A stretch of DNA of 64,000 bases from Octopus sinensis (taxonomy: Eukaryota). Both the position numbers and the translations under genes were made by a program. Where the stretch lies: NCBI RefSeq assembly GCF_006345805.1, contig NC_043021.1:24180001-24244000 (forward strand). The letters are read 5' to 3'. The notes under the pieces are model-generated. The model was not told the DNA's origin. It searched no databases and saw only the letters and a program-made list of their open reading frames with translations. Shown in pieces: positions 3,530 through 59,932 of the stretch (position 1 is its first letter; the number at the start of each line of letters is the position of its first letter).

Positions 3530-3608
3530 AATGTTGCTGACGAATCATAGACAATTATGTAAGTATAATCTGCATATTTTGTTAATGAGGAAACAATTGT
3601 ACAACATT
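3530..3608 (+). ncRNA. Type I hammerhead ribozyme
   Basis: AATGTTG-CTGACGA-[long helix II]-GAAA-CAATTG-TA^CAACATT; helix I 7 bp perfect, palindromic helix III, GUA cleavage triplet; first helix II pair is an A.G mismatch. Confidence 0.85.
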
Positions 3609-4311
3609 AATCCATTATTTAGTTGTATTTCAATTTCATTGCGTTGATTGTAGTGCTATTTCTATGTGGAATTATCGTTGGCGACTATACCGGTGGAGCT
3701 ATTTCTAGCACTAGAGTTAACATATTCAAAGTTGGCTCTCTTATATTTACAGATAAATATGAGTTTGTATCCCCGGTTTATTGTGCTAGGTCGCTCGGTG
3801 TTAAAATAAGGGTATTATTGAATTAATATCGATAATTTTATTCACCCTCATTATTGAATGTATATATACACACACACACACACACACACACGTATATATA
3901 AAAACATACTTGTACGCACATGAGCGTGTGTGTATTTGTGTGTAGAAAAGAAGTGGTTTACTTTGACACAAGTAGGAATATAGGAAAATTAGCCTTGAGG
4001 TTGAAAATGCAGTCAGCCGACCAGTAACATCTGAAAGTGCCTAATCAGAACTGGAACTGTGTTTTAAATGCTTCAAATACAAAACAATATCGGTTTGAGA
4101 AATCGTGCAAATTTCTCATTCGAATGAATAAAGCAAACAATGAACAAATCTACCTCGCATAACACGAGAGATCCTGTAAAGAAATTTTCCTTTGAATCTT
4201 CATCACGTCTAATTACGAACCTGTTAAGCTCTCGAGTTTCTGTCATGTATTATTTCTCTGAAATTTATCGAATATTTCAACTTTCCCTATTTCTTATTAC
4301 TGTGAAGCGTA

Positions 4312-5281
4312 CCGTAAATCCTCGAGTATAGTCCGCCCTTGAGTATAATGCGAAGGGGATTTTTAGGGGGCTGTACCTCTGAAAAACCTAAACCTTGTGT
4401 ATAATACGCACTCCTTCTCTAACTTAAGTCAAGGAGGTCTATTTAACGTCCTTGGTTTGTTAAAATGTATACGGTAACGTCCTTTATTATTGCCTTCTTG
4501 CCTTCTTTATCTTTGGCATCTGTTTAATTTCATCTTTATTTCTTCTCCATAACCGGACATTGCTTTCGTCAACATCAAATTTTCTTCAGGCGGCCCTATT
4601 ACCATGCTCTTCAGCATATGATATAACTTCAAGTTTAAACATAGCTGAATAAGATCTACGAGGCATTTTATGGACATGTAATGTATAAAATGTTTTATTG
4701 GAGATTAATGTACAGGTTTAAGTCACGCTTATAAAAAACCCTAGTAAAGCCCCACAGTAGTTCAAACATTTAATACTGGTATTCAATTAAGTATCTATTG
4801 TTTGCCACGGTAATGATGCAAACAGCCCATACAAACAGCAGGATGGACTATTTAGCTCTAAACTATTAAGCACAATTCGTGCGTAATTAAACCAGCAGCA
4901 CCTAGTCGAGCAAACACTTCCGCGCATGCGTAATACAATAATGGTGATGTTCTTAACTGTTATATGGAAATGTAAATATGTTTGCAAATTGTTTTTTGTT
5001 ACATGTTATTCTGTGTTCTGAATACTTTTATTTTGATAAATGTTGTTTACTGCAAGTTATGGATGATTCTTTTATGACTTCATTGCTTTCAGGCTTAGCT
5101 TAAGGTATTTTCACGCCCGACATCAGAAAATGCGTCTGAATAAACATTGCCGGACAGCAAATAGAGACTCGGACATTGCTTAGAAAATATTTTTCATTTG
5201 AAACCTCGTATATAATACGCACTAGGGACTTTGATCTTTAAATTTTGGGAAAAAATGCGGATTATACTCGAGGATTTACGG
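4312..5281 (-). mobile_element. Internally deleted pogo/Tigger-type DNA transposon
   Basis: TIR CCGTAAATCCTCGAGTATA / TATACTCGAGGATTTACGG, TA at left end; minus-strand relic from 4666 MPRRSYSAMFKLEVISYAEEHGNRAA*RKFDVDESNVRLWRR resembles the pogo N-terminal (Brinker-type) DNA-binding domain. Confidence 0.85.
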
Positions 5282-7340
5282 GATATAAATTTGAATTTCT
5301 GCTATGAAATCAATTGAAAATTAGAAAGTTACTTTATAGTTAAGGAATTTTTCTTTTAAATTTAAGTTTTGTACTTGCCCCAGCATGGCCACAGCTCATA
5401 AGCTGAAACTAGAATCAATCAATCAAAAACCATTGGCAAAAAAAAAGTTATGGAATCGTTATAGGATTTTAATAGTTCTGTTTAAAAAAAAATTAAGAAA
5501 AAGCTACAATTCATTTTGAGGCAGATGCAAATTCAACCCTCAAACCAGTTTTCCCATATATATATGTCGTCAAAGGTTACAGATATCTGCGAGGAAGCCG
5601 AATAATCTAGTACTTGACAGACGAAGTACCCTGAGGTAGCCCTGATTTGCAAATACTCGTTTAGTACCCACGCTCTTAGAAATGAAGTGGATCAGAGATT
5701 CGCCTGTCAGCACTATTGGCCACTAGTTATGATATAAACTAAGTAAAAATTCATTGACCATTTAAAAAAAATAATGCCTCTTTTTGTGATTTGACGAGAA
5801 TCACTCATTTCAACAACCCGATAATGTAGAGTAATTCTGTGTTGTTATTTTGTATTGCTTTTATATAACTAGAATTTATCCCCGTACACGGGTAGCTGGT
5901 TACGACAGCTCATAGCACCTGGACTCACATCAAATCCATCATCATCATCGTCGTTATTATTATACTTATTGTTATAATAATGATAATAATAATGATGATA
6001 AATTATTATTATTATTATTATTATTATTATTATTATTATTATACTATTTATGTGACCATTGACTTATTAAATATATGAAGTTATACATGCATATATGTAT
6101 GTATATATATTATGTATGTATATATATTATATATGCACATATATGCATACATACATGTATACACGCACACACATCACATATACGTGTTTATGTATATTAC
6201 TTTTAATTTTTAAAAATTGTTTTTTTCCTGCGTTATTTTCTTCTGTGCGGATTTCCGGTTTCCTTTGATTGGAATTAGTGTCACTGTTGGGTAAATTTTA
6301 TAGTAGCCAACTGACGTCATTTCCGACTGAAAAAGATCACAAATAATCCGCAATCACAACCAAATTCATTGATCTTCACAATAGATAACTGTTGCTTGCA
6401 ACTCGCTGTCAGTATGTGCAAGTAGCTAAGAATGCAATACGTTATAATAATAATGATGATGATAATAATAATTATTATTGTTGTTGTTGGTAATGTCATC
6501 GCCGTTGTTCTAGTTGTTGTTACACTTTCGAAATACATGCCATCGGACTTCACAAATGTGTTTTGATTTTTTTAACATTACTGTTTACTTCCGCTGCTGA
6601 ACCGAAAAAAGCGATTCTACCAGTGTCACTCGCTTATTCATAACTAACTTGTACTTCATATTTTTAATAGTTATTTATCAAAGATATTCAATTAACAGTT
6701 ATTGTGTCTAATAATCTAATAATTTCGTTAACCATTAATTTTCTGCGAACGTCTTCCTTTCGTCTCATTTCAGCTATTTTGTTTTCATCACAGACCCTTA
6801 GCAAAGAGGCACACGCTTTGTGATGCAACAGGCTGATAGAAATAGCAGCCAGATACAGTTTTGGTTTTAATAACGTTCTTAATAGGCTCAATGCTTCAAT
6901 TAAACGCTTGTTTTGATTCAGAGACCATTCTAAATAATAATGTAATGCAGTCTGTCGTAACTGGCGAGCGAGTAAGGTTTGGTAACACGTACCTTACTTT
7001 TTCTAAGTGTTTACGTAGTATCCGGCAAACCATAGACATACTCTCATTTGCGTCCCCTTTGACGTAGTGAAAGCTGGATGGAAAGAGACTCGCTCTAAGT
7101 TCTCAACTGAGTAGAAATATAACGCCTTCTTCGAGTACAGATTACATCTCCCAATCCAGAGTTTAAATGCCTCCGCCCCCAACTTTGCTTTTCATTCCTT
7201 TGGGGTCGATAAAGTAAGTCCTAGTTGAGTCCCCACCCCACCAAAATTGCTGGCCTTGTGCTAAAATATGAAACCATTATCTTAACTAACATTATTATTA
7301 TTATTATTATTATTATTATTATTATTATTATTATTATTAT

Positions 7341-7878
7341 TCAGTAGTTTTATTTTTATAGCGTGCTTTCACTTCACTACCGAGCGCAGCTCTGTGTGCC
7401 TTGGGTATGTGCTGTGATTTGTTGTGATGCTCTGATGGTTATTGTATGGAAAGTGTTCTGCGTAGGATGTGTGCAGTGCCTAGTAGTGCAATTTTCTGTA
7501 TGTTATATGTGTTTGTAAGTCCTGGTGTTTTTGTTATGTATTTGTCTGAATATTTTTTTATCATGCCTAATGCACCTACTATGAGAGGAATTGTTTCTGT
7601 TTTCAGATTCCACATTCTAGTTACCTCTATTTCCAGGTCTTTGTATTTTGAGAGTTTCTCCATTTCTTTTAGAGACACGTTGTCATCAGCCGGTATTGAT
7701 ACATCAATTAGAAAGCATTTTTTTTCTTCATGATCTCTGACAACTATATCTGGTCTGTTGGCCTTAATTTCTCTGTCTGTGTGTATCGGCATATCCCAGA
7801 GTATGATTGCTTTCTCGTTTTCTGTGACCTTTTCTGGTGTGCGCCTATACCATCTTTTTTCTGTTGTTATTCCATAAT
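7341..7878 (-). mobile_element. 3' fragment of Dong/R4-clade LINE (restriction-like endonuclease)
   Basis: ORF 7439-7792 has RPDIVV...CFLIDVSIP...KLSKYKDL...IPLIVGALG (PD-D/ExK RLE); embedded in (TAA)n. Confidence 0.9.
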
Positions 7879-7957
7879 ATTATTATTATTACTGTTATTA
7901 TTATTATTATTATTATTATTATTATTATTATTATTATTATTATTATTATTATTATTC

Positions 7958-58623: not shown

Positions 58624-58730
58624 TCCACGCTGAAGAGAAAAGAAGTTTCGGTAAGATAGAATTATTTAATATTTAATATTTTAATTCTTATGCTTTCCTA
58701 AAACTTGATTTCGAAACGTACGTCCGTGGA
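58624..58730 (+). ncRNA. Type I hammerhead ribozyme (array copy 3)
   Basis: TCCACG-CTGAAGA-GAAA...TTTC-GAAA-CGTACG-TC^CGTGGA; helix I 6 bp, ~76-nt helix II hairpin, palindromic helix III, GUC triplet. Confidence 0.9.
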
Positions 58731-59223
58731 TAACTTTAAAAATGTTTGATAGATTGCGGTTAATTCATTCTCTCTTACCTGTTTGTGTCAGCCTTCCAAT
58801 TGCTGTTTTTACTGAGATCTCCCTTTTTAGTAGAAGAAATAGCTATAACCCTTTGACTGCTATTCTAAATTCGGTATGTGGTAAGGCAATTCGTTGCTGA
58901 ACCCTTATTGCTTAGTATTACTTAAATTTTCCTCAAATGAGGCTTTTACATGCCGAAGACTACTTGGTGTAATTGATAATTATTCCAAATTAATTAATTT
59001 CACCCTTCATTATTACGGATAACCATATTTTATCTCAGTAGATGACTACAGCATCTTGTTTTGGCTACACGCGGGGTGGAAGGGGCTGTTGACACAATCG
59101 TTTCATTCACAAATTTGAATTCGGTGATACTAGTTGAGGGATTCTGCTCGCTCTGATACTGAGTTGAGTTGGTACCTCCTAGTATCTCAAAATTCAATAT
59201 ATAATCATTTATGATTATAGTAT

Positions 59224-59330
59224 TCCACGCTGAAGAGAAAAGAAGTTTCGGTAAGATAGAATTATTTAATATTTAATATTTTAATTCTTATGCTTTCCTA
59301 AAACTTGATTTCGAAACGTACGTCCGTGGA
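59224..59330 (+). ncRNA. Type I hammerhead ribozyme (array copy 4)
   Basis: Identical to 58624-58730. Confidence 0.9.
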
Positions 59331-59825
59331 TAACTTTAAAAATGTTTGATAGATTGCGGTTAATTCATTCTCTCTTACCTGTTTGTGTCAGCCTTCCAAT
59401 TGCTGTTTTTACTGAGATCTCCCTTTTTAGTAGAAGAAATAGCTATAACCCTTTGACTGCTATTTCTAAATTCGGTATGTGGTAAGGCAATTCGTTGCTG
59501 AACCCTTATTGCTTAGTATTACTTAAATTTTCCTCAAATGAGGCTTTAACATGCCGAAGACTACTTGGTGTAATTGATAATTATTCCAAATTAATAATAT
59601 TTCACCTCATTATTACGGATAACCATATTTTATCTCAGTAGATGACTACAGCATCTTGTTTTGGCTACACGCGGGTGGGAAGGGGCTGTTGACACAATCG
59701 TTTCATTCACACAAATTTGAATTCGGTGATACTAGTTGAGGATTCTAGCTCGCTCTGATACTGAGTTGAGTTGGTACCTCCTAGTATCTCAAAATTCAAT
59801 ATATAATCATTTATGATTATAGTAT

Positions 59826-59932
59826 TCCACGCTGAAGAGAAAAGAAGTTTCGGTAAGATAGAATTATTTAATATTTAATATTTTAATTCTTATGCTTTCC
59901 TAAAACTTGATTTCGAAACGTACGTCCGTGGA
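59826..59932 (+). ncRNA. Type I hammerhead ribozyme (array copy 5)
   Basis: Identical to 58624-58730. Confidence 0.9.

What the first reader, a model, noticed from the sequence alone, without database searches (positions are those of the whole stretch)
3530..59932. Helix III stays palindromic while its sequence changes between families
Seen: the segment after GAAA is CAATTG (3594), CGATCG (15293), CGTACG (58717), CATATG/CGTATG (31731/31563), TCCGGA (47336) or minimal ACGT (29535). Helix I also covaries (AATGTTG/CAACATT, TCCACG/CGTGGA, CTTTC/GAAAG, ATGCAG/CTGCAT). Known: hammerheads with weak palindromic helix III (newt satellite 2, Penelope-like elements) cleave as double-hammerhead dimers. 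Inference: selection for dimer-dependent cleavage, so mainly tandem transcripts would be processed.
Basis: partly seen in the sequence, partly recalled or inferred. Interest (0 to 1): 0.7.

Follow-up and report, generated by a model that had tools for sequence, protein, structure and literature searches.

The report
Pair-cutting hammerheads of Penelope-like retroelements
The self-complementary arm in these hammerhead RNA motifs is real and kept across many jumping-gene families of this animal genome; it is an already published design that likely lets two neighbouring copies cut each other, and in one young 600-base tandem repeat it is predicted to release a single unit that would survive as a circle and be copied back into new arrays.

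Summary
The pattern is real but published. All seven strings are where stated; five sit in type I hammerhead folds, 31731 is an inverted half-copy and 47336 a decayed copy. A search blind to helix III in 1.2 Mb of arbitrarily placed genome stretches gave 50 motifs in 29 clusters (2.9 in shuffles); 33 of 45 pairs that only a dimer can form are Watson-Crick (about 27% expected). Two motif families lie 3' of Penelope-like ORFs; one read in full is Hydra-clade. Cervera and de la Pena (2014) already list this palindrome and the dimer model, and this scan noted it before on other DNA. Caveats: the outer pairs follow from the core, CpG decay explains part of the change, and 36 of 50 motifs have no same-family neighbour. 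Added here: the young 600-bp array at 57.2-60.1 kb is a retrozyme-like unit whose two-unit transcript folds unprompted into the double hammerhead, while its circle does not form helix III; variants are often fixed across all units of one array, which fits copying from one circular unit. No cleavage or circle was observed.

The parts
3530..3608 (+). Type I hammerhead motif: helix I AATGTTG/CAACATT, core CTGACGA at 3537, 46-nt helix II region, segment CAATTG 3594-3599, predicted cut after 3601
   Evidence: 152 first-look candidates in the genome
15288..15371 (-). Type I hammerhead motif of the Hydra-linked superfamily: helix I TGG/CCA (3 bp), core at 15368, 59-nt helix II region, segment CGATCG
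21396..21483 (-). Hammerhead motif with decayed core (CTGGGAA; family CTGAGGA), helix I ATGCAG/CTGCAT, segment CGGTCG (tandem G.U); same superfamily as 15368
21582..21651 (+). Inverted partial copy of the 21477 motif
29529..29566 (-). Minimal hammerhead motif (GAAA-CG-UA, no loop III) with variant core CTGTAGA plus an extra A; solo 5'-truncated copy
31556..31638 (-). Type I hammerhead motif: helix I CTTTC/GAAAG, core at 31633, 54-nt helix II region, segment CGTATG (family CATATG)
31724..31792 (+). Inverted copy of the 3' half only (GAAA CATATG TC GAAAG), no catalytic 5' core
47328..47372 (-). Decayed hammerhead copy (segment TCCGGA, helices I and II broken) of an old family
47471..47515 (+). 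Second, oppositely oriented decayed copy of the same old family (segment TCCAGA)
52760..54059 (-). Broken remnant of a Hydra-type Penelope-like ORF (linker and GIY-YIG endonuclease, no RT)
56809..56843 (+). Weak, decayed minimal hammerhead copy (GAAA-TG-TT)
57248..60125 (.). Young array of a 600-bp non-coding unit in (TA)n: about 1.9 units on - joined to about 2.9 units on +; retrozyme-like
   Evidence: 1230 first-look candidates, best 41 matches 100% identical
57540..57645 (-). Hammerhead in array unit (segment CGTACG)
58141..58248 (-). Hammerhead in array unit (segment CGTACG)
58624..58730 (+). Hammerhead in array unit: helix I TCCACG/CGTGGA, core CTGAAGA, 76-nt helix II region, segment CGTACG, predicted cut after 58724
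59224..59330 (+). Hammerhead in next unit; predicted partner of 58624-58730 in a double hammerhead, predicted cut after 59324
59826..59932 (+). Hammerhead in last unit of the array

Best explanation
These are type I hammerhead motifs in the terminal repeats of Penelope-like retroelements and their non-coding derivatives, whose palindromic helix III likely serves to pair two same-family copies into a double hammerhead that would cut both sites. Shown: the motifs, the palindromes, their covariation, the position 3' of Penelope-like ORFs for the 15368/21477 and 31633 families, and the computed folds. Inferred: in a transcript with two copies, each GAAA-palindrome pairs with the other's palindrome-UH and the helix I strands swap, so one double hammerhead releases exactly one unit; a host ligase would close it; in the circle helix III cannot form stably, so it would stay uncut and serve as template for the element's reverse transcriptase, which primes at AT-rich sites away from the cut and runs round, giving seamless head-to-tail arrays in (TA)n. 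Most copies in the window are solo, inverted or decayed relics.
For: Dimer-only pairs 33 WC + 3 G.U of 45. Superfamily alignment of 20 chosen copies: all 4 helix I pairs and 4 of 5 helix II pairs change on both sides; helix III 100% paired, pair 15.3/16.3 GC 11 / AU 9, innermost AU 17 / GU 2 / GC 1; on a tree built with the segment masked the GC/AU switch needs at least 3 changes, at least one towards CpG gain. Common variants in the 31633 family make G.U pairs on the hammerhead strand; helix I of the 600-bp family shows C58626T with G58728A in related runs. Motifs lie about 0.6-1.2 kb 3' of RT+GIY-YIG ORFs on the same strand (L287-L289), and 0.4-0.7 kb 3' of endonuclease matches in 4 arbitrarily placed stretches (L041, L044, L060, L135). 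The unconstrained best fold of window 58600-59345 is the double hammerhead (inner palindrome pairs P 0.98-0.99), the 600-nt circle forms helix III with P about 0.04; 8 of 8 non-palindromic loops abolish it. In 78 units of 18 arrays substitutions are often fixed across one array (G58A 8/8, A47G 4/4, three changes 3/3, A74T 2/2, T344G 2/2, C567T 5/5), distance within 0.23% against 0.60% between. 19 of 21 array 3' ends fall at two TA-like sites, none at the cut. Published model: PMC4209133, PMC7229834.
Against: No cleavage, RNA end or circle was seen; the runs available were contigs of unrecorded kind. Copies run through an intact site (0-1 of 10-17 copies per family start at the cut), which uncut RNA explains equally well. 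Some arrays are mixed (T27C 4/6, A199G 2/5, G480A 2/3) and the window's own array has no private fixed variant; only 18 arrays were sampled, chosen as best matches. 12 of 59 superfamily copies have a broken segment and were left out of the alignment. With C15.2 and G16.2 held, two CpG decays turn CGATCG into CAATTG and CGTACG into CATATG with no selection on the palindrome (inference). The minimal ACGT dimer gains nothing in the model (+0.9 kcal/mol). Weak palindromes gave only P 0.19-0.51 when swapped into the 600-bp context. No ORF was found beside the 600-bp, 3537 or 29561 families. Published minimal motifs cleave slowly even as dimers (PMC4209133) and 8 of 9 Xenopus dimers did not cleave (bioRxiv 2026.07.22.740005).
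Confidence: 0.7

Rival explanations
1. The palindrome pairs two RNA copies (template pairing or packaging, like a retroviral dimer-initiation site) or sets a rarely used switch, while the RNA that is copied into DNA is mostly uncut; tandem arrays come from uncut multimeric transcripts or from unequal crossover after insertion.
For: Copies cross the cut site intact and ends do not sit at it; mixed arrays exist; one abundant family has A6 replaced by U; low in vitro activity (PMC4209133); unequal crossover is the accepted satellite model (bioRxiv 2026.07.22.740005, discussion); Naiads spread without canonical hammerheads (PMC8557442 passage).
Against: The full catalytic core is kept with position 7 free across divergent subfamilies; variants fixed across whole arrays, including both inverted halves (C10, C27), need a one-unit bottleneck.
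Confidence: 0.17
2. The motifs cleave as monomers (2-bp helix III plus tetraloop, helped by the long helix II arm or by proteins); dimers are optional and the palindrome only adds to activity.
For: Coral and mussel retrozyme hammerheads cleave as monomers (PMC7229834, sections 13 passage and 14); longer segments of 9-14 nt with 4-bp stems exist here; the long helix II arm has its own conserved distal hairpin.
Against: No cluster uses a stable tetraloop; the 8-nt hairpins cost +2.4 kcal/mol (three sites); pairs that a monomer cannot form are the ones conserved; monomer helix III P about 0.04 in the circle.
Confidence: 0.1
3. The palindromes are by-products: core-required pairs plus common descent and CpG decay, or DNA-level protein sites.
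For: Outer pair A15.1-U16.1 is core, 16 of 29 clusters share C15.2-G16.2; CAATTG, CGTACG and CATATG recur in several clusters.
Against: Innermost pair uses all four types in 20 of 27 clusters; odd-length and 8-10-nt palindromes occur; G.U-type segments such as CGGTCG, CATGTG and CGATTG are family states that are not DNA palindromes; CpG gain is needed on the tree.
Confidence: 0.03

Closest known systems
Minimal and small-palindromic-helix-III hammerheads in pLTRs of metazoan Penelope-like elements (Cervera and de la Pena 2014, PMC4209133; parts 1-2 of 4 read)
   Same: [quoted passage not shown]
   Different: Here many families carry a 44-105-nt helix II region instead of 7-8 bp, often lack the G10.1-C11.1 pair (10 of 20 unpaired), and use 6-14-nt segments including odd-length palindromes; Rfam models miss them.
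Hydra clade of Penelope-like elements (Craig et al. 2021, PMC8557442; passages and one supplement search)
   Same: P0001 has RWK, DKT, CxCX5C, C-terminal GIY-YIG and (TA)n flanks, with a hammerhead 3' of the ORF.
   Different: The paper says canonical hammerheads were readily detected in Hydra elements; the long helix II form seen here was not checked against its file S2, which was not among the files held.
Animal non-LTR retrozymes (Cervera and de la Pena 2020, PMC7229834, passages and sections 14, 17; Li, Clavereau and Pollet, bioRxiv 10.64898/2026.07.22.740005, parts 1-3 of 5)
   Same: Non-coding, low-GC tandem unit with one type I hammerhead per unit; axolotl motifs with a weak helix III work better as dimers; proposed PLE origin and circular template.
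   Different: Unit of 600 bp (above the 150-450 bp of the 2020 paper, inside the 51-972 bp of the preprint); a 76-nt helix II region; no circle shown here; evidence from array-wide fixed variants was not seen in the parts read.
Newt satellite 2 and avocado sunblotch viroid double hammerheads (Forster et al. 1988; seen only as citations), and Lunse, Weinberg and Breaker 2017 (title only; text not held)
   Same: Dimer-activated cleavage through an extended helix III.
   Different: Different hosts and elements; details could not be compared.

Membership tests
Type I hammerhead of Penelope-like elements | Core CUGANGA ... GAAA ... UH in type I order | tested here: met
   Met at 3537, 15368, 31633 and the five array copies; decayed at 21477; variant CUGU-N-GA at 29561; absent at 31731
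Type I hammerhead of Penelope-like elements | Helices I and II supported by compensatory change | tested here: met
   4 of 4 helix I pairs and 4 of 5 helix II pairs change on both sides in 20 chosen copies; C58626T with G58728A
Type I hammerhead of Penelope-like elements | Short, palindromic helix III (15.2-16.2 and loop 3) | tested here: met
Type I hammerhead of Penelope-like elements | Located in the terminal repeat 3' of an RT + GIY-YIG ORF | tested here: met
   Met for the 15368/21477 superfamily and, by endonuclease matches, the 31633 superfamily; not shown for the 3537, 29561, 47366 and 600-bp families
Type I hammerhead of Penelope-like elements | Conserved G10.1-C11.1 pair and 7-8-bp helix II of the published minimal consensus | tested here: not met
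   G-C present at 31633 and 58630, absent at 3537 and 15368; helix II regions of 44-105 nt in 16 of 29 clusters: a long-armed variant, not the minimal consensus
Type I hammerhead of Penelope-like elements | Self-cleavage, faster as dimer than as monomer | not testable with these tools
   Only computed folds
Hydra clade PLE (parent elements at L286-L289) | RWK, DKT, CxCX5C linker, C-terminal GIY-YIG, (TA)n target | tested here: met
   Motifs read in P0001 against the paper's list; (TA)n at the 3' end; weak Pfam GIY-YIG match for the window remnant, E 0.0037, below cut-off; no Pfam RT match
Hydra clade PLE (parent elements at L286-L289) | Placement in the Hydra clade on an RT tree | not tested
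   No reference Hydra proteins were on hand
Non-LTR retrozyme (600-bp unit) | Head-to-tail tandem units, one type I hammerhead each, low GC, no ORF | tested here: met
Non-LTR retrozyme (600-bp unit) | Homology to the terminal repeat of an autonomous PLE | tested here: inconclusive
   Its 3' tail matches dispersed tails at about 70-78%, some beside Hydra-type ORFs but in the opposite or a separate insertion; no ORF beside 12 loci of a related family
Non-LTR retrozyme (600-bp unit) | Expressed as linear and circular monomer RNA | not testable with these tools
   Only contigs of runs not on record as RNA; a cut-and-ligated junction would be seamless

The most novel reading that the evidence does not exclude
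The 600-bp unit is an active octopus retrozyme with a built-in two-state switch: the tandem transcript folds straight into a double hammerhead that frees one unit, the circle is locked uncut, and a Hydra-type reverse transcriptase rolls round single circles, leaving arrays whose units all share that circle's private mutations. The arrays would then be a genomic record of circle-templated retrotransposition, and the long-armed, Rfam-invisible hammerheads (about 100,000 per genome by extrapolation) a distinct variant.
Probability: 0.4. Interest if true: 0.6.

Novelty: new member of a known kind. Interest (0 to 1): 0.33.

Why it matters
The palindrome and the dimer idea are in print, so the finding as written adds little. 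What remains open in the field is whether these hammerheads cut in vivo and whether circles are the templates of Penelope-type copying. The young 600-bp family is an unusually clean test case: near-identical copies, a strong predicted monomer/dimer switch, and array-wide shared variants that can be scored genome-wide and against RNA.

Tried and rejected
Rfam at gathering score: no match. Pfam, solved structures: no RT match for the long ORFs; the Atlas gave no answer. My first reading of 47336 as a non-hammerhead repeat was wrong; the family majority forms helices I and II. Splice-donor idea (GTAAG in the long helix II arm): 4 of 16 long-armed clusters only and no splice joint in 4 runs of contigs; dropped. 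Family-specific code: CAATTG, CGTACG and CATATG each recur in several clusters, so helix III alone is no code. A6C cores: 3 hits against 2.1 in shuffles. Expression: no RNA holder listed; contigs cover the unit but their kind is a guess and no silent control was laid. One search used wrong lengths for 15368 and 21477 (redone). In one search the queries for the 15368 and 3537 families held (TA)n and their rows were discarded; the regex for L304-L313 found no intact motif and these were not examined further. Longer stretches around the arrays were not obtained, so array ends rest on 3.2-kb loci. Lunse et al. 2017 could not be read; file S2 of Craig et al. and the supplements of the other papers were not seen and may hold long-armed or octopus motifs. 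Searches for print on octopus hammerheads or retrozymes and on array-level evidence found none beyond the papers named; the library lacks most subscription papers.

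
Full report
Setting. The window lies in a 2.72-Gb animal assembly (G000:C25), rich in (TA)n and retroelement debris. That it is an octopus is recalled from the look of its SINEs and from earlier scan notes; no call of mine names it.

Checking the observation. Intact or near-intact type I hammerhead folds are at 3537 (+), 15368 (-), 31633 (-) and in five copies of a 600-bp unit (57639, 58242 on -; 58630, 59230, 59832 on +). 31731 is an inverted copy of the 3' half without the CUGANGA core. 47336 is a decayed member of an old family whose majority does form helices I and II; 9 of 21 copies keep a perfect palindrome. 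CGTATG is private to the window's copy; the family reads CATATG. The ACGT site has no loop, and its family has U at core position 6 with position 7 free. The ATGCAG/CTGCAT helix belongs to an unlisted site at 21477 with CGGTCG, self-complementary only through tandem G.U. Rfam finds none of them.

Is it more than chance? I took 120 stretches of 10 kb at round coordinates on contigs C1-C30 and ran a descriptor that needs the core, helix I and helix II but ignores helix III. It gave 50 hits in 29 clusters against 2.9 in shuffles, about 39 per Mb or roughly 100,000 per genome by extrapolation. Because A15.1-U16.1 is core and 15.2-16.2 can pair in a monomer, I scored only pairs that would close a loop of under 3 nt, which only a dimer can form, taking the first member of each of the 27 clusters with a segment of 4 nt or more, likely false hits included. 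33 of 45 are Watson-Crick and 3 G.U, against 25-27% expected; the innermost pair is Watson-Crick in 20 of 27, with all four types. Segments run from 2 to 14 nt and include odd-length palindromes (CTCGGAG, CCTAAGG, TCCAGGA, CGGCCCG, TCACTGTGA). Clusters are partly related, so the P values (about 2e-10 and 5e-7) overstate the case.

True covariation. One homologous superfamily (59 hits) holds the 15368 and 21477 families; 47 of its 59 segments pair fully and 12 do not (one a misparse). In 20 copies that I chose to cover distinct subfamilies, leaving out decayed segments, all 4 helix I pairs and 4 of 5 helix II pairs change on both sides, a distal hairpin in the long arm covaries too, and helix III is always paired: GC 11 / AU 9 at 15.3/16.3 and AU 17 / GU 2 / GC 1 at the centre. 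A confound: with C15.2 and G16.2 held, two CpG decays turn CGATCG into CAATTG by themselves. But on a tree built with the segment masked the switch needs at least three changes, at least one a CpG gain, and the central pair is untouched by this argument. In the 31633 family the common variants in public runs turn A-U into G.U on the hammerhead strand, an RNA-level signature.

What carries them. A search with the window's broken endonuclease piece led to ORFs of 709-922 aa. [quoted passage not shown] Superfamily hammerheads lie about 0.6-1.2 kb 3' of these ORFs on the same strand (L287-L289), and L286 has the repeat at both ends. In four arbitrarily placed stretches an endonuclease match lies 0.4-0.7 kb 5' of a hammerhead hit, three of them in the 31633 superfamily. 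No ORF was found beside the 3537, 29561, 47366 or 600-bp families. Of the 50 sampled motifs 36 have no same-family neighbour in their stretch, 8 only an inverted one, 6 a tandem one.

The 600-bp array. It is non-coding, about 34% GC, sits in (TA)n and has near-identical copies on many contigs, mostly in arrays. The unconstrained best fold of two units is the double hammerhead (inner palindrome pairs P 0.98-0.99, swapped helix I P 0.92-0.99); in the 600-nt circle helices I and II form but helix III has P about 0.04. Eight of eight non-palindromic loops abolish the dimer, other palindromes give P 0.19-0.96. For five 6-nt segments the dimer is 10.6-14.8 kcal/mol better than two monomer folds; for the minimal ACGT it is not. 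19 of 21 distinct array 3' ends fall at two TA-like sites about 195 and 295 nt past the cut, 5' ends and inversion points are scattered, and none lies at the cut. In four other families 1 of 17, 0 of 10, 0 of 17 and 0 of 11 copies start at the cut. So the template held an intact site: uncut or re-ligated. Among 78 units in 18 arrays, substitutions are often fixed in every unit of one array (G58A 8/8 across both orientations, A47G 4/4, three changes 3/3, A74T 2/2, T344G 2/2, C567T 5/5; T27C fixed in six arrays), and distance within arrays is 0.23% against 0.60% between. That points to a one-unit bottleneck, as copying round a circle would give. Against: some arrays are mixed (T27C 4/6, A199G 2/5, G480A 2/3), the window's own array has no private variant, the sample is small and biased to best matches, and unequal crossover or copying of a uniform multimer would look similar.

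Comparison with print. Cervera and de la Pena 2014 (PMC4209133, parts 1-2 of 4 read) list the palindromic 15.2-16.2 and loop 3 as a feature of these motifs, report no cleavage of a monomer and low cleavage of dimers, and propose circles as templates. A review states the tandem-dimer argument outright (PMC6765202 passage). Lunse et al. 2017 was seen as a title only. Retrozymes with monomer-active and dimer-preferring hammerheads are in PMC7229834, PMC7761336 (passages) and a 2026 preprint tying them to PLE repeats, in which 1 of 9 dimers cleaved. PMC5680766 was seen as passages. Earlier notes of this scan reached the same family assignment on other DNA; none matched the 600-bp unit by sequence.

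Verdict. New member of a known kind. The part worth a bench test is the 600-bp retrozyme-like family.

Noticed in passing
window 29555-29561 (-); L031-L150: An abundant minimal hammerhead family keeps U at core position 6 (CUGU-N-GA plus extra A) while position 7 varies (T 5, A 3, C 2, G 1); 14 of 120 stretches hold it.
   Followed up: partly
window 15309-15326 (-) and alignment A1 columns 44-62: The long helix II arm of the Hydra-linked superfamily ends in a conserved, covarying hairpin (U-G-Y-A ... U-R-C-A stem); could be a tertiary contact or a protein site.
   Followed up: partly
L049:7790, L069:5838, L073:9038, L107:5581, L117:1644, L223:80: Odd-length helix III palindromes with one central base, which would leave a single mismatch in the middle of a dimer helix; the central base varies within one family (CTCGGAG, CTCAGAG).
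   Followed up: partly
L092:3002, L149:9585 and 4 more copies: A family with extra A or GAAA bases between helix II and a TCGA palindrome; parse uncertain.
   Followed up: no
window 58651, 58791 (+) and 58775-58781 (-): Splice-donor-like GTAAG inside the helix II arm and a pyrimidine-rich CAG downstream; a strong CAG/GTAAGA on the opposite strand. No splice joint in contigs.
   Followed up: partly
window 54168-54412: Two 3' tails of hammerhead-bearing families (one like the 600-bp unit, one like the 29561 family) stacked next to the Hydra-type remnant in a (TA)n tract.
   Followed up: partly
L060:406-3192: A second tandem family (about 560-bp spacing, short helix II arm) with the same CGTACG segment but a different helix I.
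   Followed up: no
window 61205-63841 (+), 10427-11080 (-), 54697-55290 (-): Broken non-LTR retrotransposon RT remnants (Pfam RVT_1 for 61699-62928).
   Followed up: no
P0001 residues about 640-790 (L287): Long asparagine-rich stretch between the linker and the endonuclease of the Hydra-type protein.
   Followed up: no
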